A DNA stretch of 64,000 nt from Eledone cirrhosa. Its lineage: Eukaryota. Under the pieces are notes generated by a model. It made no database searches. It saw only the letters and a program-made list of their open reading frames with translations, and had not been told where the DNA came from. The stretch covers positions 289,106,001 through 289,170,000 of the forward strand of contig OZ024741.1 in assembly GCA_964016885.1 (NCBI GenBank), written 5' to 3'. Below are positions 4,790-60,845 of this stretch, piece by piece (the first letter of the stretch is position 1; each line of letters starts with the position of its first letter). The translations under genes and the position numbers were made by a program.

Positions 4790-5317
4790 TCTAGTCTAAC
4801 AATAGCTAGAGACTTAGGTCGTAGAACTTGCTTTACTTTTTTTCTTTACACTTATTCGCTTTTCATCACTCTCAGTATTTTTTCTTTCATATATATATTT
4901 TTACCCCTCATTGTTCTACCTACCGTTCCGACTTCCTCCCCCTCCCTCTCCCCAGTACCTTCTTTGACCTCATGCGCAGCTGCAGCTGGCACTACCAACG
5001 CATGATTGGGTCTACTCCACCCCCTCCCCTTTTTCTCCTACTGGCAGGTTTAGCCACCATCTCCCCTAGTAATTTGCAATCACGGAATTACTACTGACTT
5101 TTGACAATCACTTTGACCATATATGGAATTACCCCTTGAGAAGCTCGGCTATTTAAATACCAGGATAAATTTTCATTTAGTCCAGAATTAGCCGTCGAAA
5201 CGGCTTGAGCTCAGCCGTCGGGGTCTTACTGGTTCCTATTACCCACTCTACTACCCTAAGTATTGAGTACTTTGGTGCGTTATGGTCCACCTGGTTCCTT
5301 ACCACATTTCCTTCGTT
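4692..5317 (+). mobile_element. 3' UTR / pseudo-LTR of a Penelope-like element
   Basis: Near-identical to 58286-58790, which lies downstream of a PLE RT fragment. Carries an HHR and ends in ccttaccacatttccttcgtta followed by (TA)n. Confidence 0.75.
5131..5224 (+). ncRNA. Type I hammerhead ribozyme, U3-A8 core variant
   Basis: acccc-TTGAGAA-g..cggcta[loop]tagccg.c-GAAA-cggct(tgagctc)agccg-TC-ggggt. All three helices pair; predicted GUC cleavage after 5219. Confidence 0.7.
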
Positions 5318-5654
5318 ATATATATATATATATATATATAGGAACAAGTAAGACCCCGACGGCTGAGCTCAAGCCGTTTCGACGGCTAATTATGGTCCAC
5401 CTGGTTCCTTACCACATTTCCTTCGACGGCTATTTCTGGACTCACAGTCCAGAAACAGCCGTCGAAACGGCTTGAGCTCTGCCGTCGGGGTCATACTTGT
5501 TCCTATATATATATATGTGTGAGAAAAACGAGGAAGTTTCGTTTTCATATGAAAAATATTTATTGCGTATCGACCTGTTACGCTCGTTTCGCCGAGGATT
5601 GGCTCAAGGTGACCCATAGGAGTTATGGACCCGACTCCAGAATCAATCTGCTCC

Positions 5655-5688
<34 letters not shown>

Positions 5689-6019
5689 ATATATATATAA
5701 ATATATAATTATACATATATGTATATATATATATATATATATATTTCTTAAGGTTTGTTGGTTCACCACTGGATAGAACTGGTCATTCCGTATGGTCAAT
5801 CCTGGTGTAATATTGTGAAGAGTACTCAACGCAGTGCAGTAGTACATGGGTGGTAGTAGTACATGATAGACCTGCGCCCCCTTACCAGGTGTTCACTGGT
5901 AGTTTTTCAGTTGCCAACACTTTGAGGGCGGCTGGCTGTGAAGCTAGTTGGTCAGCCGCCTTCTCTGTCTCTGGTTTCTCGGACCCATGGCTTTTTACAT
6001 ATTCCTTTGTTATATTCCA

Positions 6020-6077
6020 ATACCTGATGATATCACCGGATTCATATGGAACCCGGTCATTGAAATGATCATTGTAT
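6020..6077 (+). ncRNA. Type I hammerhead ribozyme
   Basis: atac-CTGATGA-tatc.accgg...ccggt.catt-GAAA-tgatca-TT-gtat. Palindromic helix III. Confidence 0.75.
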
Positions 6078-7925
6078 AATAAACCTTTCAAGGATTTACA
6101 CCAGTTCAGCCTCCTGTTACTTCATTTATAATTAACTCCGTATTCGCACCACCAACTACACAAACGAATATGGGTGAACTGCACTGCGTTGAGTACTCTT
6201 CACAATATTACACCAGGATTGACCATACGGAATGACCAGTTCTATCCAGTGGTGAACCAACAAACCTTAAATAATGCTCCTATAATGTTGAGCACTTCAA
6301 AATGTGATATTGAACAGCGGCACTGACTTCAGTGTACAGCTACCGCCAGCATGGGATTAACTGATCTACTTGCCATTCGGGTTTTGGCTGCTCTGCGCCT
6401 TATCTACCGCCACCTGATACCACTTCCTTGTCGGGAGGATTCCGATTCCGACAAAACTCTACATATTATACTAAAACTGTTATTGTATTGACTGTATTCT
6501 CTACTCTATACCTCAGGACTCTTTGTGACTCGCACTGAATTCGGAACCTGAACTTTACACTAGGTACAATCTGTTACCATTCCATCTCCTCCATCCTCTA
6601 TATCTATATCTAAATGTACAACTTATATCTGTATCTATATGTACAACTTATATCTGTATCTATATGTACAACTTATATTATCTTACTACAACTTGATCTA
6701 TATTGACGCTTATTTACCTTTATTAATTTTTTTACTGTCATTAATGTATATTTTATTATTTTATTATTTTCTATTATTTTATTAATGTATTTTTATCAAT
6801 GTATTGGTATTTTTTTGTAACTTTTTCTCACTCAGGTCATTATATGCACCTTAATAGCCCCCTACCCACCGAAGAACCACACTACCTATAACCCGGACTA
6901 ACTGGGACTTTAAAATAATTTTGAATAATTTTGATCTATTTGCACTTTTCATTGTTTGACTTGTGTGGTGGCTTTTTCCCGGCTGCGCGCTGGGCACTCG
7001 GAAAGTTCAGCCTTCTTTGAGTGCTCGGAAAAATAAATTTCTCCTCTTTCGGTAAATGAAATTACTCAGAGTGGCTTGCTCTGCCCCAGTCCCACCGCGC
7101 CACCTGTTTTGGCCGCCTATTTATACCCGTACCTACAAACTCCAGGTTTGGGCACAACTATTAGCTGTATCTTGCCTCTATTGACACGTAAATAAACCCC
7201 TAATGTGTGATTTAATTGTATTCGTGGTATAGACGATGCCTGTCGAAATTGTGGGGTTCCCGCTAGCGATCCCGGGGCCAAACTTAGTTACGTTCCTAGA
7301 GTACTCTGAAAAATTAATTTCCATTTCTTTCGCTGGACGATACCACTCGAGACTGGCTGACTCATGGTGGTGGGTGTGCTGGCTGGGACTCCCAATCGAA
7401 ATCTTTACTCTATATCCCATCCTAATAGCTTATCGAGTTAACAAATTTTTTTTTCATGTAAGTCTCTCTCCGTAAGTTCGTTAAATAAATAAATCTCGCT
7501 ACCTCTATTTTTCAATTTACCATTTTCAAATATATTTTAATTTAATTTATTTCATCCTATAACTCGCAACATAAGTTTAGCGTTCCAATCTTCGGTTCAC
7601 ACATTAGACCATACAGACACCCACTATAGATTCTTTGGGTAGCATTCTTTTGGCGGCATTTTCTAACATGAATGTATTTTGACCCTTACACTACACTTCT
7701 TTCTCCCCTTCTTTCTTTCTTCCCCTTCTTCTTTGACGGGTGGTAGTAGTACATGATAGGCCTGCGCCCCCTTACCAGATGTTCACTGGTAGTTTTTCGG
7801 TTGCCAACACTTTGAGGGTGGCTGGCAGTGAAGTTAGTTGGTCAGCCGCCTTCTCTGTCTCTGGTTTCTCGGACCCATGGTTTTTCGGACCCATGGCTTT
7901 TTACATATTCCTTTGTTATATTCCA

Positions 7926-7983
7926 ATACCTGATGATATCACCGGATTCATATGGAACCCGGTCATTGAAATGATCATAGTAT
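7926..7983 (+). ncRNA. Type I hammerhead ribozyme (second copy)
   Basis: Identical to 6020-6077 except the cleavage triplet is AUA instead of AUU; both are permitted NUH. Confidence 0.75.
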
Positions 7984-8664
7984 AATAAACCTTTCAAGGA
8001 TTTACACAAGTCCAGCCTCCTGTTACTTCATTTATATATATATGTATATACACAGAGATATCCACTGTAAGTTGTGGGGTCTATTCTGTATGAAGAACTC
8101 AATGTAATCCATATGTTGAAAATGTTGTAGGTTAAGCTAAATCTCAGAAAACAATAAAACATTAAAAGGAAAACAGAGTCATGATACATTGTTTTAACTT
8201 ATATATGTATATATATATTTGTGTGTGTGTATGTGTGTTTGTGTATATATATTGTTATACTTTGGGAGGGTCATTCTGCCATTAAAAACACATGCACCTG
8301 TTAGTTTTCACTTCAATTTATTACAAATTTCCACATTTTGTGACCTCCTCAATGACTAAATTGCTATTTTCTGTTCCTTCTTTGTCCTCTCCTACATCAT
8401 CTTGTTTTTGAGAGCTCATGTTTAATTTAATGATTACTTGATTACGACATTCTATGTAAAAATGCTTGAATCCCAGAGTTTACCTTGGCCTGCCTCTTGT
8501 CACCAAGGCCACATTTAACTTTAGATTAATTTAAATCAAGTCCAATAGTTATTATCAAGCATGTGTCCGCTAAATTGCATTTTATTTATCCTACCTGTCT
8601 AACTAATTTCAGACTGGTATTAGGATTTAGGATTTGAGACAGACAGATACACAGGTAAGTACGT

Positions 8665-8723
<59 letters not shown>

Positions 8724-8728
<5 letters not shown>

Positions 8729-10014
8729 CTCAGACTCAGACGCTCCCGCGTCTTGCGACGCATGAGGCAATCATAGTGTTCCACCGCGTTCGGTCAGCAG
8801 CCAGTTGCACAGCGTCCCGCCATTGTCTGTTTGTCGCTCGCAGGTCCCTCTCAACTGTCTGGCGCCAGTTCATTTTGGGTCGCCCTCTCCGTCTGCCTCC
8901 CTGTGGGTTCCATTTAAGTACTTGGTTCGCCAGTCTCTCCGGGGGAAGTTTCAAAGCGTGTCCAAACCAGCCCAGGCGTCGCTTGCAGATGGCAGAAGAG
9001 ACTAGCTGCTGGTTGGTGTGGTTCCTGACTCCCTCTTTTGTTACATGGTCACTCCATTTAATCCCCAGGATCTTTCGCAGACACCTGGAATCGAATGCGT
9101 CCAACTTCTTCTCTTGGCTGGTCTTAAGGTGCCATGTTTCACTTCCGTACAAGAGTGTGAACAGCACGTTGTTGTTGTAGAATCTCATCTTTGTTTTGAG
9201 GGTGAACTTCCTGCTCTTCCAGATCTTGACAAGCTGGTTAAATGCTGCTGAAGCCTTTCCCATTCTACATTGCAATTCACTGTCCATGGCGCCCCCATTG
9301 TCAATGGAGCTTCCTAGGTAGGTGAAGTTGTCCACTATCTCCACCTCCCCCTGTTCAATGAAAACACTAGTTGGTGATGGGTGTGTCCCAGATAACATGC
9401 TTTTGGTCTTCTTAGCACTGATATTGAGACCTAAGCTTCCTGTTTCTACATTGATATTGTTCATAATGATTTGCAGGTCAGCTGTGCTCTCTGCAAGTGC
9501 AACAATATCGTCCGCAAAGTCCAGGTCAGACAACTTTTGCTCTCCCACCCAAGATATACCCTGGTCTTTAGACGCTCTTCTTAGTACCCAGTCAATGGCT
9601 ATGGCAAAGAGAATTGGAGAGAGCGAGCAACCTTGACGCACGCCAGTAACCACCTCAAACCAGTCACTGTAACCATCCTCTGTCCGTATGCAGCACTTGG
9701 AGTTTGCGTAAATCTGTTTGATTGCCGAAATGACTTTCTGGGGCAGACCATACTCATGCATGATGCTCCAGAGTGACGGTCGATGAATGCTATCGAATAC
9801 CTTGGAGAAATCGATGAAGCTGAAGCTGACGGCGAGAGGCCTCTGGAATTCGTTGTACCTCTCAATGATGCGGCGTAACGTAAAGATCTGCTCTGCACAG
9901 GAACGTTTTGGTCGGAACCCTGCCTGTTGTTCTCGCAGTTCCCGGTCTACCATGCCACGTATGTGGTTCAGGATCATCAGACAATAGACCTTCCCTGGTA
10001 TGGAGAGAAGTGTC
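8724..10014 (-). mobile_element. 5'-truncated RTE-clade LINE; open RT ORF to the stop at 8736, (GTCTGA)3 tail
   Basis: QAGFRPKRSC, FIDFSKVFD, GVRQGCSLSPILF, LDFADD, FTYLGS, LLYGSETW, WFGH, RRRGRP motifs; short tandem 3' tail typical of RTE. Confidence 0.93.
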
Positions 10015-10027
10015 CATATATATATAT

Positions 10028-10212
10028 AACGGGGGAAGTGTGGTAAGGAACCAGATGGACTATAACACACCAGAGTACTCGATACTTTGGGTAGTAGAGT
10101 GAGTAATAGGAAAAGAGTCAGGACCCCCGACGGCTGAGCTCCGGCCTTTTCGACAGTTAGTTACTAGCTGTCGAAACGGCCGGAGCCCAGACGTCGGGGT
10201 CCTGACGCTTTT

Positions 10213-10216
<4 letters not shown>
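10028..10216. mobile_element. Inverted pair of PLE pseudo-LTR fragments (3' halves of the HHR)
   Basis: Minus-strand copy of the 5190-5317 sequence followed by a plus-strand gtcgaaacggcc...gtcggggt; (TA)n flanks. Confidence 0.7.
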
Positions 10217-10251
<35 letters not shown>

Positions 10252-11570: not shown

Positions 11571-11587
11571 TATGTGTATATATATAT

Positions 11588-11797
11588 AACGAAGGAAGTG
11601 TGGTAAGGAACCAGGTGGACCATAACGCACCAGAGTACTCAATACTTTGGGTAGTAGAGTGGGTAATAGGAAAATGTTCAGGACCCCGATGGCAGAGCTC
11701 AAGCCGTTTCGACGGCTATTTCTGGACTCAGAGACTAAGTCCAAAAATAGCCATCGAAACGGCTTGAGCTCTGCCGTAGGGGTCCTGAACCGTTTCA
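11588..11797. mobile_element. Inverted pair of PLE pseudo-LTR fragments
   Basis: Same family as 5190-5317: minus 11588-11730, plus 11737-11797; (TA)n flanks. Confidence 0.75.
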
Positions 11798-11811
11798 TAT
11801 ATATATATGTA

Positions 11812-15625: not shown

Positions 15626-15659
15626 TTGTGTATATATATATATATATAATATGTATCAT

Positions 15660-15850
15660 AGGAAAAAGTAAGACCCCGACGGCAGAGCTCAAGCCGTTTC
15701 GACGGCTATTTCTGGACTAAAATAGCCGTCGAAACGGCTTGAGCTCTGTCGTCGGGGTCTTACTTTTTCCTATTTCCCACTCTACTTCCCTAAGTATTGA
15801 GTACTCTGGTGCATTATGATCCATCTGGTTCCTTACCACAATTCCTTTGT
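15660..15850. mobile_element. Inverted pair of PLE pseudo-LTR fragments
   Basis: 15660-15718 minus and 15721-15850 plus form a near-perfect palindrome; (TA)n flanks. Confidence 0.75.
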
Positions 15851-16075
15851 AATATATATCATAGATAGATTGGAGATGTATGGTTGAAGCATAGAGAAAA
15901 AAGTTTGGAGAATTGTACACCAATACTTGGTGGTAGACATGGCTTTGGACACACATATATACATATATATGTATATATATACATGGTGTCTCCCAAACAT
16001 TTATACACAGTTCAATTGCATTCTAATAAATATGTGTATACATCTTTTCGGGACACCCTGTTTATACACACACAC

Positions 16076-19541: not shown

Positions 19542-20352
19542 GTCAGGTCACCAGTTGGTGCTACTGGTAACATGTATCCCAGTACAACCTGTCTCATGGT
19601 CGGGTCGTTGGCGACTAAACTGGCAACCCCACCAAGACTTCTTGGTGAGGAGGGTGACTTTGGACATCCTGCAGGACTAAAAACAAAACCTGTCAAAGGG
19701 CAAAGGAGCTCTTAAGAGTCAATGGCCATCCAAAATCACATATGTCAGGTCACCAGTTGGTGCTACTGGTAACATGTATCCCAGTACAACCTGTCTCATG
19801 GTCGGGTCGTTGGCGACTAAACTGGCAACCCCACCAAGGTTTCTTGGTGAGGAGGGTGACTTTGGACATCCTGCAGGACTAAAAACAAAACCTGTCAAAG
19901 GGCAAAGGAGCTCGTAAGAGTCAATGGCCATCCAAAATCACCGGGAGAGATGACCCCTTAGCCTTTGTCAAGGCAGAATTCTAGGAGAAGGAAAACTCTG
20001 ATATAACACCTGCAACCCTGATGATATCCAATGATGTTGACTTGTTCTTCTTTTTGGTAAATATCATCTTGGTTAAGAGAGTGGGACTGGCTTTGTGCAG
20101 TGCCTTTGCTCACTATAAAAGCTTCACGGCACAGGCATTGCTTTGTATCTGGAGATCTCTCTGCACTTGTCGTCACATGGTACCATGGGCCCAGCACTAT
20201 GTGTCAATAATTGTCACAAGTGTAGTGTCTGTACCAGAGTTTTCAAGTCGCTGGCTGGACTAAAAAGTCACACTCGTTCAGCGCATCGGTAGGGGTTCTC
20301 CTACATGGATATAAAGTAGTGGCCGTACTCGAAAACGAGTTGGCAGCCACCA
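19542..20352 (+). mobile_element. Non-autonomous RTE-derived element (about 610 bp) with its first 200 bp tandemly duplicated
   Basis: RTE-like 5' UTR motif tctaggagaaggaaaactctga; the 3' end encodes the C2H2 motif [23 protein letters not shown] (20221-20292); 19542-19739 is repeated from 19744. Confidence 0.75.
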
Positions 20353-20440
20353 TATATATATATATATGTATGTATGTATGTATATATATATGTATATATA
20401 TGTATATGTATGTATGTATGTATGTATATATGTATGTATG

Positions 20441-22440: not shown

Positions 22441-23000
22441 TCTCATGGTCGGGTCGTTGGCGACTAAACTGGCAATCCCACCAAGGTTTCTTGGTGAGGA
22501 GGGTGACTTTGGACATCCTGCAGGACTAAAAACAAAACCTGTCAAAGGGCAAAGGTGCTCTTAAGAGTCAATGGCCATCCAAAATCACTGGGAGAGATGA
22601 CCCCTTAGCCTTTGTCAAGGCAGAATTCTAGGAGAAGGAAAACTCTGATATAACACCTGCAACCCTGATGGTATCCAATGATGTTGACTTGTTCTTCTTT
22701 TTGGTAAATATCATCTTGGTTAAGACAGTGGGACTGGCTTTGTGCAGTGCCTTTGCTCACTATAAAAGCTTCACGGCACAGGCATTGCTTTATATCTGGA
22801 GATCTCTCTGCACTTGTCGTCACATGGTATCAACTACAAAGCACTATGTGTCAATAATTGTCACAAGTGTAGTGTTTGTGCCAGAGTTTTCAAGTCGCTG
22901 GCTGGACTAAAAAGTCACACTCGTTCAGCGCATCGGTAGGGGTTCTCCTACATGGATATAAAGTAGTGGCCGTACTCGAAAACGAGTTGGCAGCCACCAT
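22441..23000 (+). mobile_element. Second copy of the RTE-derived element (5'-truncated)
   Basis: Near-identical to 19793-20352. Confidence 0.85.
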
Positions 23001-23496
23001 GTATGTATGTATGTATGTATGTATGTATGTATGTATGTATGTATGTATGTATGTATGTATGTATGTATGTATGTGTGTATGAGTGTTCTTCTGGTTTTAT
23101 AATTTTATACACTTTTATCAATAGAGGGAGAGAGTCAGTTTCTAACAGACACAAGTCTCATAGAAATTTAAACAACATCAACTAGGTAGATATGTCTGCA
23201 TGCATGCATGTGTGTGTAGGTATGTATACATGTATGTATGTACGTACGTACGTATGTATGATTGTATGTATGTATGTATGTACGTAAGTACGTATGTATG
23301 TATGTATGTATGTATGTATGTATGTATGTATGTATGTATGTATGTATGTATGTATGTATGTATGTTTCTCTTTCTCTTAATACGTATGTATGTGTGTAAG
23401 TACGTACGTATGTATGTATGTATGTATGTATGTATGTATGTATGTATGTATGTATGTATGTATATGTTTCTCTTTCTCTTAATACATATGTATTAA

Positions 23497-23901
23497 GATG
23501 ACCCCTTAGCCTTTGTCAAGGCAGAATTCTAGGAGAAATAAAACTCTGATATAACACCTGCAACCCTGATGATATCCAATGATGTTGACTTGTTCTTCTT
23601 TTTGGTAAATATCATCTTGGTTAAGAGAGTGGGACTGGCTTTGTGCAGTGATTTTGCTCACTATAAAAGCTTCACGGCACAGGCATTGCTTTATATCTGG
23701 AGATCTCTCTGCACTTGTCGTCACATGGTACCATGGGCCCAGCACTATGTGTCAATAATTGTCACAAGTGTAGTGTTTGTACCAGAGTTTTCAAGTCGCT
23801 GGCTGGACTAAAAAGTCACACTCGTTCAGCGCATTGGTAGGAGTTCTCCTACATGGATATAAAGTAGTGGCCGTACTCGAAAACGAGTTGGCAGCCACCA
23901 T
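23497..23901 (+). mobile_element. Third copy of the RTE-derived element (5'-truncated)
   Basis: Near-identical to 19949-20352. Confidence 0.85.
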
Positions 23902-25063
23902 GTATGTATGTATGTATGTATGTATGTATGTATGTATGTATGTATGTATGTATGTATGTATGTGTGTATGTATATATGTTTATCTTTTAATACATATGTA
24001 TGCATGTATGTATATATGTTTCTCTTTCTCTTAATACATATGTATGTATATATGTTTCTCTTTCTCTGAATACATATGTATGTATATATGTTTCTCTTTC
24101 TCTGAATACATATGTATGTATGTAAGTATATCCTCCTCCTTCAACTATCTTACCGTCTGCCCCTTGGCGAAATAACGTTTGTTTACAGTTAGTATACAAC
24201 TACGCTGGTTTGATTTTTAAAAACCTTTCATGTAGGAAATTGAATGGGCCTTCGCCGAGTTCAATGATGAGTGTTCCAGTTGTTCAATCAAAGGAACAGT
24301 CGGCTCATGAGATTAACGCGTGGCTGTGTATACCACTGATACAGTAGGCTTAACGAAAATTTCCATTGAAATTCGACGAGACACCTTCTGTGACAAGGCT
24401 GCCCCGATGGGCTTCCAAACAGTTTATGTATACTTAATTTGACTCATAAGCTTTTGGTCGACCCGAGGCTATGGTAAGTGACATACAATGAGATCAAACT
24501 CAAGACCTAATAACTGCGAAACTGACCCCTCATAATCCTTCAGCCACGCCGTGTCCATAGCATTTGTTTACATAATTCCATAACCAAAAAAGAAAAAAAA
24601 GAGAGAGAGAGAGAGACTGATAAAGAGAGAAATATATATACATTCTGTCATTACAACAGCAGAGGTTCGACGAGCTTTTGATTCCAGAGTCGGGCTAGAT
24701 CGATTCAGATCGAACCTTGAGCTGATCAATAGCGAAACATGCGTCACCAGTTAATAAACGTAATGAAGGGTTAGCAAATCGTTCTTGTATTATATGCAGG
24801 GCACAAACCAATATTTATTGATTCTTAAAGGAGCATAAACTGCTTATAGTGCCTTTCCCGGACCCTATCACATAAGCAACATTTTACGCTAATTAAATTT
24901 TATATATTCAAATGAAGTTGAGATATAAAAAAAATAAATTTAAAAAGAATTTATTATATTAAAAAAATATATATATAGGCGTTTGAAAAGTGTGTGTGTG
25001 TGTGTGTGGGGGGACTTGTCCCCTGGTACCCCCCTGAAACAAGGCCCTTGATTATATATATAT

Positions 25064-25130: not shown

Positions 25131-25419
25131 TGAAAGTGAAAAGAGAATAAAAGAAAAAAAATGAAGATCTCAGGATTGAATTTTCAATCAATCGATAGGA
25201 ATTGGAATATCTTTTTGGAATCGAACCCGGACTCTAGGATTGCTTCATTGTAAATTAGCCACAAACACTATGTCACTCAGATAGAACTTTATGAGTAAAT
25301 AAATAAAAAGGAATTAATTAAAATGGCTGATGGTGTTCATTGTAAATTTGTTGTTATTGTTATTGTCGTAGTTGTCCTTATTATTGTTGGTATTGATGTA
25401 TGTGTTGTTATTACTAGTG

Positions 25420-39997: not shown

Positions 39998-40600
39998 TGG
40001 CTGCCAACTCGTTTTCGAGTACGGCCACTACTTTATATCCATGTAGGAGAACCCCTACCGATGCGCTGAACGAGTGTGACTTTTTAGTCCAGCCAGCGAC
40101 TTGAAAACTCTGGTACAAACACTACACTTGTGACAATTATTGACACATAGTGCTGGGCCCATGGTACCATGTGACGGCAAGTGCAAAGAGATCTCCAGAT
40201 ATAAAGCAATGCCTGTGCCGTGAAGCTTTTATAGTGAGCAAAGGCACTGCACAAAGCCAGTCCCACTCTCTTAACCAAGATGATATTTACCAAAAAGAAG
40301 AACAAGTCAACATCATTGGATACCATCAGGGTTGCAGGTGTTATATCAGAGTTTTCCTTCTCCTAGAATTCTGCCTTGACAAAGGCTAAGGGGTCATCTC
40401 TCCCAGTGATTTTGGATGGCCATTGACTCTTAAGAGCTCCTTTGCCCTTTGACAGGTTTTGTTTTTAGTCCTGCAGGATGTCCAAAGTCACCCTCCTCAC
40501 CAAGAAACCTTGGTGGGGTTGCCAGTTTAGTCGCCAACGACCCGACCATGAAACAGGTTGTACTGGGATACATGTTACCAGTAGCACCAAGTGGTGACCT

Positions 40601-40603
<3 letters not shown>
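39994..40603 (-). mobile_element. Fourth, full-length copy of the 610-bp RTE-derived element
   Basis: Reverse complement of 19744-20352; (TA)n on both sides. Confidence 0.88.
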
Positions 40604-40686
<83 letters not shown>

Positions 40687-42689: not shown

Positions 42690-45600
42690 TAATATCCGCT
42701 GCTACCAAGAGCAGGGCAGGCAACAAACGAAGAAGCCCCTTCCACGGTGAGTAGGAGGGCAACGTCCGTAGCACCCGTACCAAGGCCACGGACAACTAAA
42801 GAAGCATCATCAGTGGCGGCAACACCAATAGCTACATTTGAAGTAGCTACACCAGCATCAAAATTGCCGAAGAGGGCTCCACTACCACCACCAACAGCCG
42901 TGGAGCAGATACCCCTCCCAGACGCCACAGAATCCGACATGGAGTTTGAGGTGGGAGTGAAGTGTCAAACGGTCTGCCACAAAAAACAAAAAACAAAAAA
43001 CCCTTTAGATTCACCCTCCAAAAGCGAAGGCATACAAAGAGGGGTAAAGGCAGCAAGGAAACTTGCAGCAACACCACCACCATCACCACCACAAGCACCA
43101 CTGACAACAACAACCACACCACCACCAGCATCACAAAAAACACCAACAACGCAAACACAACAAGACACACACACCAAACAGCAACAAGAAGAAAACAGCA
43201 ACAAAATCACCCCTCCCCCAAAAAGTACACAGCCATAAACATGGCAAAAAAAAAGAACTCATACAATATATAAAGCAGCACACAGACATCACAGAAAAAA
43301 ACTACTACACCCCACCAACACCAAGAACTCTCCCGACAAACATAAGCATCATCGAAATCTCAATAGAACAGTACAAACCTTTAAAATAAAAATTCTCCAA
43401 CGCAGTTGGAGACTTCAGAGGGTCGGTTACCAAGAGGATGTACACTGACATCCTCTTGGAAACACCCATGACCAGCGAAAGGGACGGTTCTACTGTCCCT
43501 TCACCACACGATCAAGGTAAGTGAGCCTTTCTCACTTGCCCCGTTTCTCATCCAACATGGCCGTACTCAGAATAGGCAGTATAAATGCACGTGGCCTGGG
43601 GTCATCTTGGAAGCAGGGTCACCTGCTCAACGACCTCAGGTCACTAAACATAGATGTGGTGGCCATCAGTGAAACCAGAATCTCCGAAGCACAAGCCTTC
43701 GCACCGATCTTCGGCGGCTACGATGTATACGCATCTCCCAGCCGTCCAGGATCGGGGGAGGGGTTGCCGTCCTTTTTCGGAGAGGCTTGGATCTCGCGAT
43801 ACGGGCCATCTTCCAAGACCCAGAAGGTAAGTCGGTGGTGCTGGACGTGACCGGCAGCGAAGGCAATGCTTTCAGGCTAGTAGCCGTCTACAGCCCAACA
43901 GGGGCAGGACGGCCAGATTTCTTCAGACGTCTAGAGATCTTTCTTGGAACGTCCCGCTCTTTAGTGTTAGTGGGCGACTGGAACTGTATATTGGATGCAC
44001 GCTGGGATCGTGTGGGGCTAGTGGATAGGAGAGGAGGGTGAAAGAGCCTCACCAACCTGCTCAGACGTTTTGAACTGTCTGACAGGTATCGACTGGATCA
44101 CTCGAATGTGCCAATGTGGACATGGACAAATCGTATCGGGTCATCCAGATCGTATCTCGATAGGGTATTCTGCAGAGAACTAGATAAGGCTAGTATAAGT
44201 TGTCCACAATTTAAAATAGTCGACTACACAGACCACAAATTTGTGATCTGTGAGATCGACATAGACAGACTTCATAGACAAGGGTCTGGTTACTGGAAGC
44301 TGAACGCGTCTTTCCCGGCGCGCAAAGCCTACAGAGACCGGATTAGCGTATTAGTTAAGCGGGCGTTGACGGGAGCGGTCGTCAACAACAAGTGGTGGTT
44401 CGCCCTGAAAAGGGCAATTAAAGTAGAGTCGATTAGGTTTAGCAAAGGAGCAGTGATAGAGGAAAATAGAGTAGAGGGAGAGCTAGTCAGAAAGCTAGAA
44501 GAGGCGTTTAGAACAGGCATCACAACCGAGGTGCTTGCGGCGAGATTGGCACTCGACCAATTCCTCGATGCAAAACACGAAGGCTGCGTTGTCAGAGCTA
44601 GAGCGCGTGCTCTGAAACACGAGGGGACAAAAGCCGTCCAATGGGCTCGGGTGGCACAGGCGCGACGTGGCAACAAAGCAACAATTCGGTTTTTGTCTGA
44701 CCAAAACGGGTGCGTGATGCTCGAACCCGAGCGGATGTGTGAAGCTTTTCAGCAGCACTTTGCTGAACTGTTCAGGAGCGGCGGCGGCCCGGATCGGGGC
44801 ATGGACTTCAGTGCAAACCTCGACAGACTGCCTCGGCTCTCGACGACCGCAGCACAGTGTTGCGAAAAGCCAATAACAGCCGGTGAAATACGGGAAGCGA
44901 TGGCTAAATCGCCAGGTTTGGATGGTCTGCCCTACGACCTTTATGCATTTATGCCAGACTTGTTCGGTGAACTCTTGGCAGACGTCTACTGCAACTGGCA
45001 GCATAACGGGAGCATTCCCAGTTTTGTGAGCCGGGGAGCAGTGGCGCTGCTGAGAAAAGACCCGACCAAGGGGGATGTTATCGATAATTTCAGGCCCATA
45101 ACCCTGCTAAACTCAGAGTTCAAGATTTTGGCCAAGGTGTTAGCAACGAGGTTGGCGCTTGTCGTTGGTGGTCTGGTGGGAGAGGCGCAGACATGCGCTA
45201 TTCCGGACAGATCCATACACGACAGCCTCCACCTCATGCGATACATCATAGAGAGGGTGGTTAAGGAACCTGGCACGGGTGGGGCCCTGATCAATCGATA
45301 GCGTCGACCATCGGTACCTGGCGGCGGTCTTCGAGGCAGCCGGTTTCGGGCCCGTTTTCAGGCGTTGGATCGCAGCAATGTACAGCGACATCTGCTCAGT
45401 TGTGAGGGTGAACGGTCACCTGTCGCAGCCGTTCAGTATCATGCGCTCAGTCCGCCAGGGTTGTCCTCTCTCGTCCCTCTTGTACGTATTGGCTCTCGAG
45501 CCGATACTGCACAAACTGGGGGCGATGAGGGGCGTCCCACGCGAACTAGGATGCGGGAAATCCGAGTCGGTTACGCTGACGACGTTACCGTGGTGGTGTC

Positions 45601-47247
45601 GAGCACCAGACACGTCCAGATGCTCGGCATCGCTCTCAAGGAATACGAAACGGTGACAGGAACAAAGATAAACCAGGAAAAGTCGGTGGGCTTGCAGCTA
45701 GGCACCTGGAGAGGCAATTCCATGCCGTCCGACAGCGTCGTGGGGCGTTGGACGAACGGACCGGTTAAATTGCTCGGGGTCTGGTTCGGACCGGACCTCC
45801 AGATGGAGAAAAACTGGAACGAGGTGACGAGCAGAGTGGCCTCCCTCAAAAAGAAATGGGCTGAGAGGAAGCTGTCCCTGAAAAACCGGGCGGAAGTGGC
45901 GAATGCGTACATCGCATCCGTCATCTGCTACCCCCTCACCGTCGTCCCTTGCTCCAGCCCAACTCTCACCAAAATGGAGCGCCTCCTCTTCCGCTTTTTG
46001 TGGAAGGGACGCGCTCCCATGGTCAGACGATCCATCTGCTGTCAACACCCGTTGCGTGGAGGACTGGGCATGCCATGGCTGATGATGCGCAAACATGCGC
46101 TAAGGCTGTGACATCTCTGGTGCTTCCTTGATGGTGAACGGGTGTGGTCGCCGTTCGCCAGGCACATTTTCCCACAGCTCGTCTCCTTGACGGAGCTGCA
46201 GTCCTGGGTCAGAAAAAGACCGAGGGATAGCGCTTGGAAACTGGAATGTCTCCAGGCGCTCACTGCCCTCTCCCAGTTGGGCACCAGTATCGGTGGAACA
46301 TCCACCTCGGCGTTCTATAGAGGACTAGTGGGGGGGGGGGGCGACTACGTTCTCGGAGAGATCGTGGGCGTCGAAGAAGATCAGCTGCTTACTCTCTTCC
46401 GGAGAACTTTCAGCCCGGGGCCTATGGATAACTTCCAAAAATCCCTGGCCTGGCAGTGCTACCGGGGAGCGCTGCCGGTTCGAGATAAGCTCTACAGGCA
46501 CGGAAGTGCCGTCAGCCGAGCCTATCCGAGATGCGCGCATAGCGACGAAACCGTTGTGCACGCACTCGTTCAGTGCCCGAGCATTGCTGACTTGTGGAGC
46601 TATGTCGAACAGTTGCTGTCACGTGTGGGACTGATCCGGTTGTCGACTGAGTCCATTGTGCAGATGGTCTCACCGTCTTCCTTTGAGGAGGAAGGGCAGG
46701 CGGTTTTCATCTGCCTGGTGGCCATGGCGAAAGAGATTGTGTGGTGGACAAGGTTAAAAGGATTAAATACAAACACTTTTCTCTTCGGCGAAACCCTGAT
46801 TAACTTTTTCAAGTTTCACTTGAAGAGGAAAATCAGGGTGGAGAGGCAAGTGCTGCTTTCTAGCAAGTTTGTTGAAAGGTGTGTGAATGTAGCGAGAATG
46901 GTCCGAGTGAACGGGACCACTCTGAATATACGTCTGTAGTTTGAGAGATGGAAAAATTGAGAGAGGGTGCTTGCCCTGGTAGTCAGTGTGGCCGTGGTCT
47001 TTTGTGTGGTTTTCGCCACGAGTAACCCTCAGAGGTCTCCCCCCTACTGGGGAATTTTTCATTGTTTCAATTTTCATTTTATTGTTTATATATATATATG
47101 TTTTATGTCTTTTTTCTTTTCTTATATAAATAATAAAAATATTTACACGCACAAAACCCACATCGTACCGCCCTGTTCCGTCTGTGATGTTTTTCTTGAT
47201 GTCAGCCCTTGTGGCCAATAAAGAAATCATTATTATTATTATTATTG
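42690..47247 (+). mobile_element. L1/Tx1-clade LINE copy A (5'-truncated in ORF1, disrupted)
   Basis: ORF1 C-terminus, ORF2 from ATG 43557, 3' UTR, aataaa and (ATT)n tail. Confidence 0.93.
43557..46939 (+). pseudogene. ORF2 of copy A: APE endonuclease, RT and C-terminal Cys/His motif, with stops and frameshifts
   Basis: SINARGL, GDWN, SYLDR, TDH, KSPGLDG, FRPITLLN, VRQGCPLS, YADD, ETVVHALVQC. Confidence 0.92.
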
Positions 47248-47461
47248 AATGCTATGGTTGACGGAGGCTCGGCTCTGTAAGGTATTGTAAATTTTGACCG
47301 CTATAACAATTGTAAATTTTTTAAAACTTCAACCAACTTGTAGACAAAAACACCCTCCTCCTCGTGAGAGGGGTCTTTCTGCCCGTTATTTGGCCCTTCG
47401 GGGTTAAATAACTGCTTATTGGGGTTTTGTGCCCAATATTTATTTTAAACAAAAAAACAAC

Positions 47462-47824
47462 ATGGCTACGAAAAAGAATTTTCATAGGTCACTCCCACTC
47501 ATTCCGTCTTCTTCTTCCTCAATCGTCACTACAGCAGAGAGAAGATTGTCTCTCTCCTTCCCTTCATTAACTGTGTCTCTCTCCCTCCCTTCTCTTTCGC
47601 AAGCGACGACAGAAAAGAAAAATCTCGTGCAAAGCGTGCAAGATTTCTCCACGACGACGACGACAACGACGAAACAGGTGTGCGGGAAATACGAAAACCC
47701 ATTTCATTCGTCTGACGTCAGGAATAATAGCAGTAGCAGCCGTAATAACAACAGCAACAGTGACAAGGAAAACAACAGTAGCAGCCGCAACAGCATCAGC
47801 AGCAGCATAAACAACAACAGCATT

Positions 47825-47858
<34 letters not shown>

Positions 47859-49583
47859 ACAACAACAACCACAGCAACAGCGGCGCCGGCAGTAGTCGTA
47901 GTACCTGCAGCAACAACAAAAGTAACAGCAGCTCTGACGACAACAACAACAACAGCAGCAAAGAAAAACCAAACCCGTTTGCAGGTATCGCAAAGAACCT
48001 GGAAACCATCCTCATAACAAATGAGGAATTAGAGGAAGCGAAGAAGATGGTGACAAAAACTGGACACCGAGCAATCTGCAAGGCAGCGGAAAAATTTTTC
48101 AAAACCCAACAGCACTGTACGGTCACGTACCGTACAGTAAATACAAAATCCCGTAGGGTTGAAAGAGCCACAGAGGCTCAAATACAAAAAGCCTTGGGGT
48201 CTGTGTGGCAGCGGAAAACGCACATCACCCGAGGCAAGAAATATGCCACCGTAGACGTACTTTTTGCCACACCCCAGGAGGCAAAGGCTCAATCCTTAGT
48301 GACCCTAAGGAGCGAGGAAATGGTGTTGGTGCTCTCCTACTGCGGGCAAAAAATTGTGAGGGTCAAACTGACCCCCCTCCCCCAGGGATGGCCCCTTCTT
48401 GGCTGGCCGCGTCTGTCCTCGTCGGAATCGAGGACAAAACAACTGTACTGCAAGTACAGAAAAAAGTAAGAGAAGATTGGGTCGGCACCTCCATTGAGAT
48501 GTTAATCCAAACCAACCAGGAGTGCATCGGAGCTATCCCGGATGTGATAGACTTCGATAACGGCACTCAACTGCCCATAAGTGTTGAGGGCAAACGCCCG
48601 AAATGCTTTCGCTGTGGATCGAAGACTCACCTCAGGGCCTTCTGCAACGAGAAGACCCTGAGAACGGAGAAAACCCCCCTCCTTCCGAAACCGGCTCCAC
48701 GGCTACCAGCAACAGGACAAGCGGCAACCAGGAACGATAGGTCCGTGGCACCCATACCACGCCACGGAAATCAAAAACAGCAGCAGCAGTGGAAGTATTA
48801 ACAACAACAACAGCAATACCAAATGCAGCTGCAACAGAGACTCCAGTGCAAACATCACCAACAACAACAAGTGAAAGAGTGGAGCTGGTACCCCTCCCCG
48901 ACCTCACAGAATCAGACATGGAGTGTGAGGTGGGAGAGGGATGGCAAAAGGTCGTAAGAAGGCACAAACGCAGAAGCAGCGCATCGTCGCCTTTGAAAAG
49001 GGAGGAAAGAAATGAGAAAAGGGTAAAGTCTACTGCAAAGAGACTCACAGCAGCAACACCACCAACACAATCACCACCCACACTAGCACCACCATCACCA
49101 CCGGCGACAACCCCACCGCCAACAACACCTTCAACACCACCACCACAAGCACCAACATCGCAAACACAACAACAAAACACACACACCCAGCAACAACGAC
49201 AAGAAAATAGCAGAACCACACCCCACCCCCAGAAAAACAAATGCACGGCAATAAATACACACAACAAGAAACTAATGACTTACATAATTGAACACACAGA
49301 CATTTCACAACACGACTACATAATACCAGCACCAATCAAAACGCCAACTAACATAAGACTGCTAAAAATAGCACAGAAACAATACACAAACATTAAAACG
49401 AAATTCCCCAACGCAGTTGGTGATTTCAGAGACCTAGGAGGGACACTCAACCGAAGAGTATATTCGGACATACTCATAGAAGAGCCGACGACCAGCCGAA
49501 GGGACGATTCAACGGTCCCTTCACCAGACGATCAAGTGAAAAGGGATGGAAAAACCATCCCTCCTCTACGAAAAGTACGGTAA
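47462..49583 (+). pseudogene. ORF1 (gag-like) of copy B with a CCHC zinc knuckle; two frameshifts
   Basis: CFRCGSKTHLRAFC; Asn/Ser and Pro/Thr low-complexity tracts; C-terminus homologous to copy A (LPDxTESDMExEVG). Confidence 0.8.
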
Positions 49584-49618
49584 GTGGTCTTTCCCATCTT
49601 TTCCACTCTATTTTAAAC

Positions 49619-52600
49619 ATGACCTCACTCAGAATAGGCAGCATAAATGCGCGTGGCTTGGGGTCGTCATCGAAGCAGGGTCACCTGCTCAACGACCTCA
49701 GGTCACTAAACATAGATGTAGTGGCCATCAGCGAGACCAGAATCTCCGATCTTCGGCGCTACAATGTGTACGCATCTCCCAGCCGTCCTGGATCGGGGGG
49801 AGGAGTTGCTGTGCTTTTTGGGAGAGGTTTGGATCTCGCCATACGGGCCATCTTCCTGGACCCAGAGGGTAAGTTGGTGGTGCTGGACGTGACCAGCGGA
49901 GACGGGAAAGCTTTCAGGCTAGTGGCCGTCTATGCCCCAACAGGAGCATGGCGGCCTGATTTCTTCCGGCGTCTGGAGACCTTTCTTGGAACGCCCCGCT
50001 CTTTAGTGTTAGTAGGCGACTGGAACGGGATCTTAGATGCACGCTGGGACTGTGTGGGATTAGCGGATAGGGGTAGAGGGTGCAAGAGCCTCACCAACCT
50101 GTTCAGGCGTTTTGAATTGTCTGACAGGTACCGATTGGATTTCGCGAATGTGCCAATGTGGACTTGGACAAATCGCATATGGTCATCCAGATCATATCTA
50201 GATAGAGTATTTTGTAGGGAAATAGATAGGTCTAGCATAGGCTGTCCACAATTCAAGATAGTCAGCTACACGGACCACAAATTCGTGATCTGTGTGCTTG
50301 ACTTAGATAGGCTTCATAGACGAGTACCCGGCTACTGGAAGCTAAACGCGTCCTTACCAGCGCGCAAGGCCTACAGAGACCGGAGTAGCGAACTAGTTAA
50401 GCGGGCGTTGACGGGGGCCATCGTCAACAACAAGTGGTGGTTTGCTCTGAAAAGAGCGATTAGAATAGAATCGATTAGGTTTAGTAAGGCTTTAGCAATA
50501 GAGAAAAATAGAGCAGAGGGAGAACTAGTTAGAAAATTAGACGAGGCGCTTAGCAAAGGCATTGCAACCGACGTGCTTGCGGCGAAATTGGCCCTTGACC
50601 AATTCTTCAATGCAAAGCACGAAGGCTGTGTTGTCAGAGCTAGGGTGCGTGCTCTCAGACACGAGGGGACGAAAGCCGTTCAATAGGCCCGAGTGGCGGA
50701 GGCGCGTCGTGGCAACAAAGCCACGATCCGGTCTTTGGTGGACCACGACGGGCGCATGCTACTCGATCCCGGGCAAATGTGTGAAGCTTTTCAGCGACAC
50801 TTCGCTCAGCTGTTCGGGGGTATCGGGGGGCCGGGTCGAGGGATGGACTTTAGTGTCTACCTCCACGGACTGCCGCGGCTCTCGGCCACTGAGGCAGAGT
50901 GTTGCGAAAAGCCGATAACAGCCGCTGAAATACGGGAGGCAATGACTGGCTGCACAAGGGGTAAATCGCCTGGTTTGGATGGTCTGCCCTATGAACTTTA
51001 CGTACAGATGCCAGACTTGTTCGGAGGCCTCTTGGCGGACGTCTACTGCAACTGGCAACAGAACGGGAGAATTCCCAGTTCTGTGAGCCGAGGAGCGGTG
51101 GCACTGCTGAGAAAGGATCCGAACAAGGGGGATAACATAGATAATTTCAGGCCCATAACTCTGCTAAACACAGAGTTCAAGATTTTGGCCAAGGTGCTAG
51201 CAAAGAGGTTGGCGCTTGTCGTTGGTGGTCTGGTGGGAGAGGCGCAGACATGCGCCATTCCCGACAGATCCATCCACGACAACCTCCAGCTCATGCGATA
51301 CATCGTAGAGAGGGTAGCTAGGGAACCTGGCACGGGTGGGTCTTTGATCAATTTAGATCAGTCGAAAGCTTTCGATAGGGTCGACCATCGTTACCTAGCG
51401 GCAGTCCTGAGGGTGGCTGGCTTTGGGCCCGTCTTCAGAGGCTGGATCGCTGCCATGCACAGCGACATCTGCTCTGTGGTGAGAGTGAACGGTCACCTTT
51501 CGGAACCGTTCAACATCATGCGCTCGGTCCGCCAAGGATGTCCCCTCTCGTCCCTCTTGTACGTATTGACTCTCGAGCCATTACTGCACAAACTGGAGAC
51601 GTTGAGGGGGTCCCGCGCGAACTAGGATGCGGAAGATCCGTGTCAGCATATGCGGACGATGTCCCGTAGTGGTGTCGAACGCCAAACACATCGAGGCGAT
51701 CGGCACTACACTAAGAGAATACGAAGCGGTGACAGGAGCAATGATCAACCAGGAAAAGTCAGTGGGCCTGCAGCTCGGCACCTGGAGAGGCAGGTCCATG
51801 CCGTCCAACAGCGTCGTCGGACGCTGGACGGACGGACCGGTTAAATTGCTAGGGGTCTGGTTCGGTCCGGACCTCCAGACGGACAAAAACTGGGACGAGG
51901 TGACGAGCAGGGTGGCTTCTCTCACCCAGAAATGGGCGGAGAGGAAGCTATCCCTGAAAGGTCGAGCGGAGGTTGCTAACGCGTACATCGCGTCTGTCAT
52001 CTGCTACCGCCTGACCGTCGTACCTTGTCCTAAGCCTCGCCTGACTGCGCTGGAGCGTTTGCTCTTTCGCTTTTTGTGGAAGGGACGCGCTCCGATGGTG
52101 AGGCGGTCCATCTGTTGTCAACACCCGCTACGTGGCAGTTTTTATCTGTCTGGTGGCCATGGCGAAAGAGATAGTATGGTGGACACGTTTGAAAGGGTTG
52201 AAGACGAGCACTTACCTCTTCGGTGATGCCCTGATTAATTTTTCAAATTTCATTTGAAAAGGAAAATAAGAGTAGAGAGGGAAGTGCTCTCTTCCCAGCA
52301 TTTTGTTGAAAGATGGGTGAGAGAAGCAAGAATGGCCCGAGTGAATGGGCCTACTCTGAGTATATATCTGTAAATTAAAGGTGAAAACTGGGAGAGGGCA
52401 CTTGCCTTGGTGGTCAGGGTCACTGTGGCATTTTACTGGGCTTTCTCTACAAATGTCCCTCCGAAGTCTCCCCCCCCCCCCCTATTGGGGAATTTTTCAT
52501 TGTTATTTTTTTGTTACATCCTTTGTTTTTGTTTTTTACACGCAGAAATGCCCATTTGTACCGTACTGTATTGTCCTGCACTGTCCTTAATGTCTACTTT

Positions 52601-54693: not shown

Positions 54694-54718
54694 TATATAT
54701 ATATATATATATATATAT

Positions 54719-55044
54719 AGGAAAAAGTATGACCCCGACGGCAGAGCTCAAGCCGTCTGGACGGCTATTTCTGGACTAAATTAGAATTTTTAGCCTCCTA
54801 TTTCCCACTCTACTACGCAAAGTATTGAGTATTCTGGTGCGTTATGGTCCATCTGGTTCCTTACCACATTTCCTTTGTTTTATATATATATATATAAGAA
54901 CATATATATATATATAAATATATAACGAAGGAAAAGAACATATATATATATATATAAATATATAACGAAGGAAAAGTGGTAAGGAACCAGGTGGACCATA
55001 ACGCACCAAAGTACTCAATACTTAGGGTAGTAGAGTGGTTCCTA
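54719..55044. mobile_element. Rearranged PLE pseudo-LTR fragments
   Basis: Same family as 5190-5317, in both orientations, interleaved with (TA)n. Confidence 0.72.
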
Positions 55045-55091
55045 TATAAATATATATATATATATACGCACATAAGAACACACACATAAGA

Positions 55092-57635: not shown

Positions 57636-57639
57636 ACAT

Positions 57640-60776: not shown

Positions 60777-60845
<69 letters not shown>

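What the first reader, a model, noticed from the sequence alone, without database searches (positions are those of the whole stretch)
5747..8035. Non-coding 1.9 kb unit bracketed by two hammerhead-bearing direct repeats: candidate large retrozyme or circular RNA replicon
Seen: about 285 bp direct repeats (5848-6130, 7738-8035), each with an intact type I HHR (6020-6077, 7926-7983) whose helix III is the palindrome TGATCA. The only core difference is at the free H position (AUU versus AUA). Predicted cleavage sites are 1906 nt apart. The interior has hairpins (for example 6992-7026) but no recognisable ORF. A 94-bp inverted copy of 6177-6270 caps the left end, and (TA)n flanks both sides. Known: PLE pseudo-LTRs and retrozymes carry HHRs, palindromic helix III permits dimeric cleavage, and retrozyme monomers circularise. 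Inference: a non-autonomous, PLE-mobilised element giving a 1.9 kb linear or circular RNA, longer than typical animal non-LTR retrozymes.
Basis: partly seen in the sequence, partly recalled or inferred. Interest (0 to 1): 0.78.

Follow-up and report, generated by a model that had tools for sequence, protein, structure and literature searches.

The report
Ribozyme-bearing non-autonomous Penelope-like retrotransposon
This is one copy of a protein-free jumping-DNA family, present hundreds of times in this animal genome, that carries a predicted self-cutting RNA and likely borrows its copying enzyme from a related protein-coding Penelope-like (Hydra-type) transposon; the proposed circular RNA is untested.

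Summary
Observation confirmed with small corrections: direct repeats 5848-6130 and 7738-8036, hammerhead (HHR) folds with cut sites 1906 nt apart, a 93-bp inverted cap, (TA)n flanks, no ORF.

It is one copy of a dispersed non-coding family (864 exact hits of its HHR 25-mer; 5,431 for a wider clan, units checked 1.9-2.9 kb) with Penelope-like (PLE) insertion anatomy: 5' truncations, inversions, partial tandems, (TA)n targets and two fixed 3' ends about 140 nt apart. The cap is this optional PLE 'tail'; 36 of 37 two-ended insertions carry it at exactly one end.

A young, intact Hydra-clade PLE (894-aa ORF) in the same genome shares the HHR variant, both ends and a 26-nt motif just past the tail, so it is the likely enzyme donor.

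The HHR covaries across families but is non-canonical, and cleavage is untested. There is no support for a circular replicon: no RNA data, the monomer folds like shuffles, and copy ends do not pile up at the cut. A circle remains possible as template, because both reverse-transcription start sites lie within 200 nt after the cut.

New variant of a known kind.

The parts
5656..5744 (.). (CA)n then (TA)n microsatellite, left flank and target
   Evidence: 112 of 120 sampled family termini run into a TA tract
5748..5840 (-). Inverted, 5'-truncated second arm made of the last 93 nt of the tail (tail-type end)
   Evidence: 100% identical to 6178-6270; the same end recurs in many copies
5841..5847 (+). 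7-nt filler at the inversion junction, repeating bases a few nt downstream (microhomology)
   Evidence: sequence
5848..6130 (+). Upstream pseudo-LTR: the truncated 3' end of a second unit; its length varies between copies
   Evidence: 90, 148, 237, 283, 320 and 629 nt in different loci
6020..6077 (+). Type I hammerhead variant, upstream copy; cut predicted after 6073; private AUU triplet
6131..6272 (+). Optional PLE tail (about 140 nt) between the two fixed 3' ends, the inferred reverse-transcription start sites
6276..6301 (+). 26-nt post-tail motif shared with the autonomous Hydra PLE, where it lies just before the start codon; inferred enzyme-recognition element
6302..7737 (+). Non-coding body with a 25-nt minisatellite (6599-6678), AT-rich tracts and a pyrimidine tract
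7019..7067 (+). Conserved internal motif, copy 1; kept in sister families whose bodies differ; function unknown
7299..7348 (+). Conserved internal motif, copy 2
7738..8036 (+). Downstream pseudo-LTR ending at the short (tail-less) 3' end; carries a 16-nt duplication at 7862-7896
7926..7983 (+). Type I hammerhead variant, downstream copy; cut predicted after 7979; family AUA triplet
8037..8053 (.). TA-rich right flank; no target-site duplication can be told apart from the microsatellite
6074..7979 (+). Predicted 1906-nt monomer if both hammerheads cut; not observed
   Evidence: inference; fold not above shuffles

Best explanation
This is one copy of a dispersed, non-coding element with Penelope-like (PLE) insertion anatomy that is likely copied by the reverse transcriptase and endonuclease of a Hydra-clade PLE of the same genome, which would cut (TA)n DNA and start reverse transcription inside the RNA at two fixed sites. 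Inferred steps: (1) the + strand is transcribed; (2) the Hydra protein binds near the conserved post-tail motif; (3) both DNA strands of a (TA)n tract are cut and primed, one at the short site (6130/8036) and the other at the tail-end site (about 6272), giving two head-to-head, 5'-truncated arms with the tail at one end only; (4) copying past one unit length gives the direct repeat. Shown: the multicopy family, the two ends, the one-tail rule, the target, the lack of coding signal, and homology to the Hydra element. The hammerhead is conserved with covariation and is predicted to cut as a dimer. The RNA that is copied is continuous across the cut site, so it is either uncut or re-ligated. Sub-odds: the young Hydra family E itself is the donor, about 0.55; the hammerhead cuts in vivo, about 0.5; a circle is the usual template of full-length copies, about 0.25.
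For: Family: 21 of 40 scored places cover at least 1350 of 1451 interior bases (self at 100%, the rest 87-93%), out of 1941 candidates; 864 exact HHR 25-mers; 5,431 clan-wide. Anatomy: truncations, inversions and partial tandems; 36 of 37 two-ended insertions are tail + short, 1 short + short, 0 tail + tail, P 3e-10. This matches 'tail often at only one end' in PMC8557442 and the two internal start sites in PMC11167929. Partner: L462 holds an intact 894-aa ORF with RWK, DKT, CxCX5C and CxxC/CxH, the Hydra diagnostics of PMC8557442 section 11. 28 of 30 of its copies have a related HHR 1.1-1.4 kb after the ORF, with 15 short and 12 tail ends. The stretch from HHR to post-tail motif aligns with the window at score 120 against shuffles 79.6 +/- 6.4, maximum 102.5 of 1000. 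The motif has 237 genome hits, control 0; 38 of the first 100 are E-type, and 12 of 14 fetched E-type hits run into the Hydra ORF. HHR covariation: 44 two-sided changes, 0 of 500 shuffles.
Against: No autonomous element with a near-identical pseudo-LTR was found. Family E is only loosely similar and its tail is about 100 nt against 140, so the donor may be another Hydra family (59,122 first-look candidates, 150 scored, all family E). The 100 loci screened for a Neptune partner were mostly chosen at the endonuclease or 3' UTR end and seldom include the ORF start, so the absence of the motif there is a weak test. The internal motif is absent from 53 Hydra loci, so part of the element's conserved content is unexplained. 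Neptune and Naiad PLEs also target (TA)n. There are no RNA or biochemical data. The end tallies come from the first 76 Mb of one contig.
Confidence: 0.8

Rival explanations
1. A large retrozyme or circular RNA replicon: both hammerheads cut, and the 1906-nt monomer circularises, accumulates and is copied RNA to RNA, with genomic copies as by-products.
For: Two HHRs one unit apart with a palindromic helix III and covariation. 97 of 99 sampled pieces run through the cut site, as a circle would give. Small animal retrozymes do form circles (PMC7229834).
Against: The circular fold is -406.6 kcal/mol against -378 to -416 for 8 shuffles, 54% paired, whereas retrozyme circles are described as highly self-paired. 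Copy divergence is flat along the unit, mean 5.2%, as expected of neutrally ageing DNA copies. Copies are dispersed, not in arrays. 3' ends at the cut number 2, against 2 at a control site and 246 at the family-A short end. PLE HHRs are weak in vitro (PMC4209133), and cleavage was not needed for insertion in PMC11167929.
Confidence: 0.06
2. Same kind of element, but mobilised by one of the abundant Neptune PLEs of this genome.
For: Neptune-type ORFs are abundant and some are young (10,596 GIY-YIG candidates; 97-99% identical 3' ends). They also end in (TA)n and show inversions.
Against: No Neptune 3' end examined shares the pseudo-LTR. The apparent cases L127 and L141 are separate insertions. 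The Neptune ORF start seen in L122 lacks the post-tail motif, while a Hydra element shares HHR type, tail and motif.
Confidence: 0.07
3. A once autonomous PLE whose ORF has decayed in place.
For: The ends are homologous to an autonomous PLE and the body sits where the ORF would.
Against: tblastn of six PLE proteins, including the Hydra one, finds nothing significant in the unit (best E 0.2). Pfam finds nothing in the 6 longest frames. Only 13 of 77 indels keep frame; the longest stop-free stretch in 21 copies is 72-118 aa against a shuffle 95th percentile of 135. The 1.4-kb non-coding body was itself amplified as a unit.
Confidence: 0.04
4. An LTR-type element (plant-style LTR retrozyme or TRIM) or a local duplication, with the repeats as true LTRs.
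For: Two direct repeats of about 285 nt flank a non-coding interior.
Against: The upstream repeat has no fixed start; the HHR is type I; copies are 5'-truncated and inverted; the ends are the two PLE sites next to (TA)n.
Confidence: 0.02

Closest known systems
Hydra-clade Penelope-like elements (Craig et al. 2021, PMC8557442)
   Same: HHR in the pseudo-LTR, (TA)n target, partial-tandem and inverted insertions, tail at one end; in this genome direct sequence homology from HHR to post-tail motif with a Hydra family.
   Different: No ORF. The tail is about 140 nt (about 100 in the Hydra family) against the 30-40 bp given for PLEs. The HHR is non-canonical in helix II. A twice-repeated internal motif is absent from the autonomous element.
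Animal non-LTR retrozymes (Cervera and de la Pena 2020, PMC7229834; Li et al. 2026 preprint 10.64898/2026.07.22.740005)
   Same: Non-coding, type I HHR in each unit, GC about 39%, PLE-derived ends, presumed PLE mobilisation; two consecutive HHRs are present.
   Different: Unit 1906 nt (clan to about 2.9 kb) against 150-450 bp, or 51-972 bp in the preprint, whose tandem-repeat search stopped at period 1000. Dispersed 1.x-mers and truncated pieces rather than arrays. Not unusually self-paired. Circles not shown.
Non-autonomous Chlamys PLEs such as MRC1 (PMC8557442)
   Same: Non-autonomous, forms pseudo-LTRs and head-to-tail copies, shares its end with an autonomous family.
   Different: Green alga, N-terminal endonuclease clade, mostly without canonical HHR, (CA)n or (C)n targets.
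Poseidon element PAc of Anolis (Frangieh et al. 2024, PMC11167929)
   Same: Two internal start sites bounding a tail, both strands cut and extended, AT-rich target, need for RNA 3' of the start site; the model for the mechanism proposed here.
   Different: Autonomous, different clade, HHR overlapping the start codon; the mechanism is shown there and only inferred here.
Plant LTR retrozymes
   Same: Two HHR-bearing repeats around a non-coding interior.
   Different: Type III HHR, fixed LTRs, PBS/PPT, 4-bp TSD, GC above 55%, Gypsy partner (as described in PMC7229834 and the preprint); not matched here.

Membership tests
Non-autonomous Penelope-like element | Dispersed multicopy family | tested here: met
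Non-autonomous Penelope-like element | Partial tandems (pseudo-LTRs), 5' truncation, inverted 5' arm | tested here: met
Non-autonomous Penelope-like element | Optional tail, usually at one end only | tested here: met
   36 of 37 two-ended insertions; about 140 nt rather than 30-40
Non-autonomous Penelope-like element | No RT/endonuclease ORF, intact or decayed | tested here: met
Non-autonomous Penelope-like element | End sequences shared with an autonomous PLE | tested here: met
   distant but significant homology to Hydra family E; no near-identical partner found
Non-autonomous Penelope-like element | Mobilisation in trans by that PLE protein | not testable with these tools
   needs an in vitro or cell assay
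Hydra clade (the partner, family E) | RWK, DKT, CxCX5C linker, CxxC and CxH around the conserved E and N, C-terminal GIY-YIG, HHR, (TA)n target | tested here: met
   motifs read in the L462 protein against the list; GIY-YIG E 0.001, below the Pfam cut-off
Hydra clade (the partner, family E) | Placement in the Hydra clade on an RT tree | not tested
   no named reference proteins were held
Animal non-LTR retrozyme | Type I HHR in at least two consecutive units | tested here: met
   the variant is not found by Rfam
Animal non-LTR retrozyme | Short unit (150-450 bp, up to about 1 kb) in tandem arrays | tested here: not met
   1906-nt unit; dispersed, at most 2 full units seen
Animal non-LTR retrozyme | Highly self-paired monomer | tested here: not met
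   fold within the range of 8 shuffles
Animal non-LTR retrozyme | Self-cleavage and circular RNA in vivo | not testable with these tools
   no RNA holder listed
Type I hammerhead ribozyme | Core CUGANGA / GAAA / UH with helices I-III | tested here: met
   core invariant in 22 aligned sequences, 93% of cells paired, 44 two-sided changes; 3 of the 22 come from other HHR families of the genome whose element was not traced
Type I hammerhead ribozyme | G10.1-C11.1 closing pair of helix II | tested here: not met
   U.U then A-U in this family; G-C after the extra U in families D and E
Plant LTR retrozyme / LTR element | Fixed-length LTRs and type III HHR | tested here: not met
   variable repeat start and type I HHR
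Plant LTR retrozyme / LTR element | PBS, PPT and 4-bp TSD | not tested
   not searched; any TSD would be hidden in the (TA)n flanks

The most novel reading that the evidence does not exclude
A clan of 1.9-2.9 kb non-coding parasites of a recently and possibly still active Hydra PLE in which hammerhead cutting and circularisation are required for full-length copying. The start sites and the enzyme-recognition motif lie in the first 230 nt after the cut, and a typical 1.15-mer locus such as this one has no such module at its 3' end, so only a circle lets the enzyme run round into the body and rebuild the pseudo-LTR. The twice-repeated internal motif would be an undescribed RNA element serving this cycle. 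These would be animal retrozyme-type circles about twice the longest unit in the papers read, with an identified partner enzyme.
Probability: 0.25. Interest if true: 0.75.

Novelty: new variant of a known kind. Interest (0 to 1): 0.45.

Why it matters
What the hammerhead does for PLEs and how pseudo-LTRs are regenerated are open questions: the circle model of PMC4209133 is untested, and cleavage was dispensable in vitro in PMC11167929. This system makes both testable. It offers an intact, very young Hydra ORF, a non-coding passenger that has kept only the cis-elements (HHR, two start sites, a 26-nt motif), and thousands of genomic products obeying a near-strict one-tail rule, which points to ordered use of the two start sites on the two DNA strands. 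It also extends HHR-bearing non-autonomous PLE derivatives beyond the size range screened in the papers read. It remains a transposon family of a recognised class, so surprise is moderate.

Tried and rejected
Rfam at gathering score (whole window) and at E<=10 (5000-9000): no HHR and nothing credible on the internal motif.

Expression: no RNA holder listed. The three listed runs are contigs of one sample, of unrecorded kind; they served only for variant states.

Neptune as partner, my first guess: L127 looked like an ORF followed by this pseudo-LTR, but 0 of 29 other copies of that family carry it, so it is a nested insertion. L310, L403 and L419 are likewise single adjacent or nested cases.

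A DNA search with the family-E pseudo-LTR returned nothing, although such copies exist; the tool skips very common words, so this blank means nothing.

Structure of the internal motif: a three-way junction pairs in 91% of cells but shows no covariation beyond shuffles (441 of 500 as high); RNAalifold gives a weak, different fold. A stem between the tail and the post-tail motif has no two-sided change. Tail folds are not significant (z -1.4 and -1.1).

Circle versus linear template from the genome: inconclusive. My first count that three loci have discordant repeats was a pattern-matching error; the alignment shows only the window copy is discordant for the 16-nt duplication. The L262 dimer (99.9% identical units) is better read as a local duplication, because its internal tails share a deletion that the terminal tail lacks. 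Sibling repeats were nearest neighbours in 6 of 15 ranked pairs, two of these with ties, and as far as rank 32 of 72. 5' ends at the cut: 2 of 99, about 1 expected from the local truncation rate.

Earlier scan notes: none found.

Full report
OBSERVATION. The window is G000:C2:289106001-289170000 of a 3.0-Gb, microsatellite-rich genome. The described features are present. The direct repeats 5848-6130 and 7738-8036 differ by 9 substitutions and a 16-nt duplication, and 5748-5840 is an exact 93-bp inverted copy of 6178-6270. HHR cores are at 6024 and 7930, with an 8-nt helix III palindrome and predicted cuts after 6073 and 7979. (TA)n lies on both sides. Rfam reports no hammerhead. Helix II opens with U.U and has a C.C mismatch, so this is a variant. 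Across 22 related HHRs from this genome the core is invariant and the helices covary: 93% of cells paired, 44 two-sided changes, 0 of 500 shuffles, slid controls 24-46% paired. These sequences are related, so the shuffle count is not a probability. The left AUU is private: AUA in 240 of 247 distinct copies, AUU in 1.

A DISPERSED FAMILY. The interior finds 1941 candidates; of 40 scored, 21 (self included) cover at least 1350 of 1451 bases, the others at 87-93%. The family's HHR 25-mer occurs 864 times exactly, a degenerate clan pattern 5,431 times and a post-cut 22-mer 5,111 times; controls were 0. Sister families share pseudo-LTR and tail but have different non-coding bodies; the units checked run from 1.9 to about 2.9 kb. 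Twenty-one near-full copies differ by 5.2% on average, evenly along the unit. Only 13 of 77 indels keep frame, and no copy has a stop-free stretch above chance. Six PLE proteins and Pfam find nothing significant in the unit.

INSERTION ANATOMY. Copies are 5'-truncated, often inverted, sometimes in partial tandem, and the upstream repeat has no fixed length. They end at one of two places, equivalent to 6130/8036 or about 6272, and 112 of 120 sampled termini run into TA. From the first 100 listed hits (contig C1 only, 99 distinct pieces), 37 two-ended insertions of up to 3.2 kb were found: 36 have the tail at one end and the short end at the other, 1 has two short ends, and none has two tails (P 3e-10 against an even split). 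Four further insertions were not counted: one longer than the cut-off and also mixed, and three with atypical ends. The window copy obeys the rule: its cap is the tail-type end of a short inverted arm and its right end is the short type. This is the PLE tail, described as a 30-40 bp extension often present at one end only (PMC8557442, passages). It has been shown to lie between two internal reverse-transcription start sites (PMC11167929, parts 1-2 of 4). Here it is about 140 nt.

THE PARTNER. Neptune PLEs are abundant, but none examined shares these ends, and apparent cases were nested insertions. A weak profile hit led to L431, where a related HHR follows a different PLE ORF. L462 holds it intact: 894 aa with RWK, DKT, CxCX5C and CxxC/CxH motifs, the Hydra-clade diagnostics (PMC8557442 section 11), a clade also reported to target (TA)n and carry HHRs. 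No tree was made. This family E is very young: 39 of 150 scored copies are 100% identical in the endonuclease and all are at least 96%. Of 30 copies, 28 have the HHR 1.1-1.4 kb after the ORF, with 15 short ends, 12 tail ends and 1 cut off. Its stretch from HHR to start codon aligns with 6078-6310 at score 120 against 79.6 +/- 6.4, maximum 102.5 of 1000 shuffles. The best-kept part is a motif just past the tail (6276-6301). It has 237 genome hits; among the first 100, 38 are E-type and 62 of the non-coding type. Of 16 fetched, 14 are E-type, 12 of them followed by the Hydra ORF, and 2 belong to the non-coding family. Against this: similarity is distant, the E tail is about 100 nt, many other Hydra families exist, and the Neptune loci seldom included the ORF start, so their lack of the motif (0 of 100) is a weak test.

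HOW IT LIKELY WORKS. Inferred by analogy with PAc: the Hydra protein binds near the post-tail motif, cuts both strands of a (TA)n tract, and primes one strand at the short site and the other at the tail end. The two truncated cDNAs join head to head, here through a 7-nt filler. The template is continuous across the HHR cut. 97 of 99 pieces extend past it, and 2 stop within 2 nt of it against about 1 expected (extents for the rarer families are approximate). 3' ends at the cut are no commoner than at a control site (2 and 2, against 246 at the family-A short end). A cut linear monomer is therefore not the usual template, which also follows from the layout: the start sites lie about 57 and 200 nt after the cut. 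Two templates remain. One is an uncut transcript from a dimeric source locus; such loci exist. The other is a circle made by two cuts and ligation, as proposed in PMC4209133 (parts 1-2 of 4). This locus has no tail or motif at its 3' end, so on this model it could yield full-length copies only through a circle. Genomic tests did not separate the two (one miscount corrected). The monomer folds no better than shuffles, and no RNA data were available.

UNEXPLAINED. A motif of about 50-65 nt occurs twice in the body (7019-7067, 7299-7348) and once or twice in many sister families with different bodies, including the distant family D. It is absent from 53 Hydra loci. A three-way junction is possible but has no covariation support.

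COMPARISON AND NOVELTY. It works like an animal non-LTR retrozyme in being a non-coding, HHR-bearing PLE derivative, but it fails two defining features: a short unit in arrays and a highly self-paired monomer. Those units are 150-450 bp (PMC7229834, passages) or 51-972 bp in a screen capped at period 1000 (10.64898/2026.07.22.740005, parts 1-3 of 5). Non-autonomous PLEs are known in Chlamydomonas (PMC8557442) and butterflies (PMC6685494, passages). Seven answered searches of the open library listed no paper on kilobase non-coding passengers of Hydra PLEs. Repbase and Dfam could not be searched, and the supplements of PMC8557442 (Hydra consensus and HHR files) and of the preprint were not seen; they may already hold such families or tails. 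Hammerhead numbering and the twin-priming idea are from my own knowledge.

VERDICT. A real feature and a new variant of a known kind: a non-autonomous, Hydra-linked PLE (confidence 0.8). The circular replicon reading is unsupported (0.06); a circle as required template is open (0.25). Interest 0.45.

Noticed in passing
window 5000-5516, with copies at 10016-10238, 11571-11811, 15635-15870, 54696-55066, 58558-58806 and 60823-60968: Another abundant repeat with inverted arms that ends at two recurring sites next to (TA)n and contains a TTGAGTACT word like the tail here; possibly the end of another PLE family. No HHR core was seen in it by a simple scan.
   Followed up: partly
window 61566-62828 and 57638-57883: Fragments of Hydra-type PLE ORFs (35-52% identical to family E), the first with a 420-aa open frame; HHR-like cores at 61534 and 63668.
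   Followed up: partly
window 8736-10160 (-): 474-aa open frame that reads like the RT of an RTE-type LINE (by eye, not scanned).
   Followed up: no
window 44042-53574: Two broken non-LTR elements in tandem with endonuclease and RT-like frames (L1/Tx1-like by eye, not scanned).
   Followed up: no
window 25300-34100: About 9 kb of G-rich tandem arrays (GTG-based, plus a 67-nt unit x 32) with extreme GC skew.
   Followed up: no
window 19740-20407, 22443-23056, 23496-23957 and 39938-40607: A repeat of about 670 nt present several times, 95-98% identical, flanked by TA and ATGT tracts.
   Followed up: no
window 5748-5840 against 6178-6270: The inverted arm is 93 of 93 identical to the internal tail, although the direct repeats of the same insertion differ at 3.2%; chance (about 5%) or gene conversion.
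   Followed up: no
L122 and L127 (G000:C1): A young Neptune-type family (97-99% identical 3' ends, 3308 candidates) with an upstream frame out of register with the RT frame in L122 and no recognisable HHR at its 3' end; all 29 other copies stop at one site.
   Followed up: partly
L462 (G000:C2:291939900-291942600): Family E Hydra ORF has a long low-complexity insertion between RT and endonuclease, and its endonuclease region rings at 59,122 first-look places, a very large load for a clade described from few families.
   Followed up: partly
L339, L346, L266, L175: Other Hydra-type ORFs are followed 0.8-1.7 kb downstream by HHRs; those in L339 and L346 have a similar build, with a non-standard first pair, an internal mismatch and a palindromic helix III.
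   Followed up: partly
L403:2530-2625 and L228:1490-1585: Chimeric junctions without a TA tract: a family-B body joined to the 3' UTR of a Hydra element, and a family-A copy running 55 nt past the tail into the end of another repeat; template switch or nested insertion.
   Followed up: partly
L352-L429: 47 of 99 sampled 5' junctions fall 101-250 nt upstream of the post-cut motif, many at a GC-rich hairpin before the HHR in family B; part of this may be a limit of the references used.
   Followed up: no
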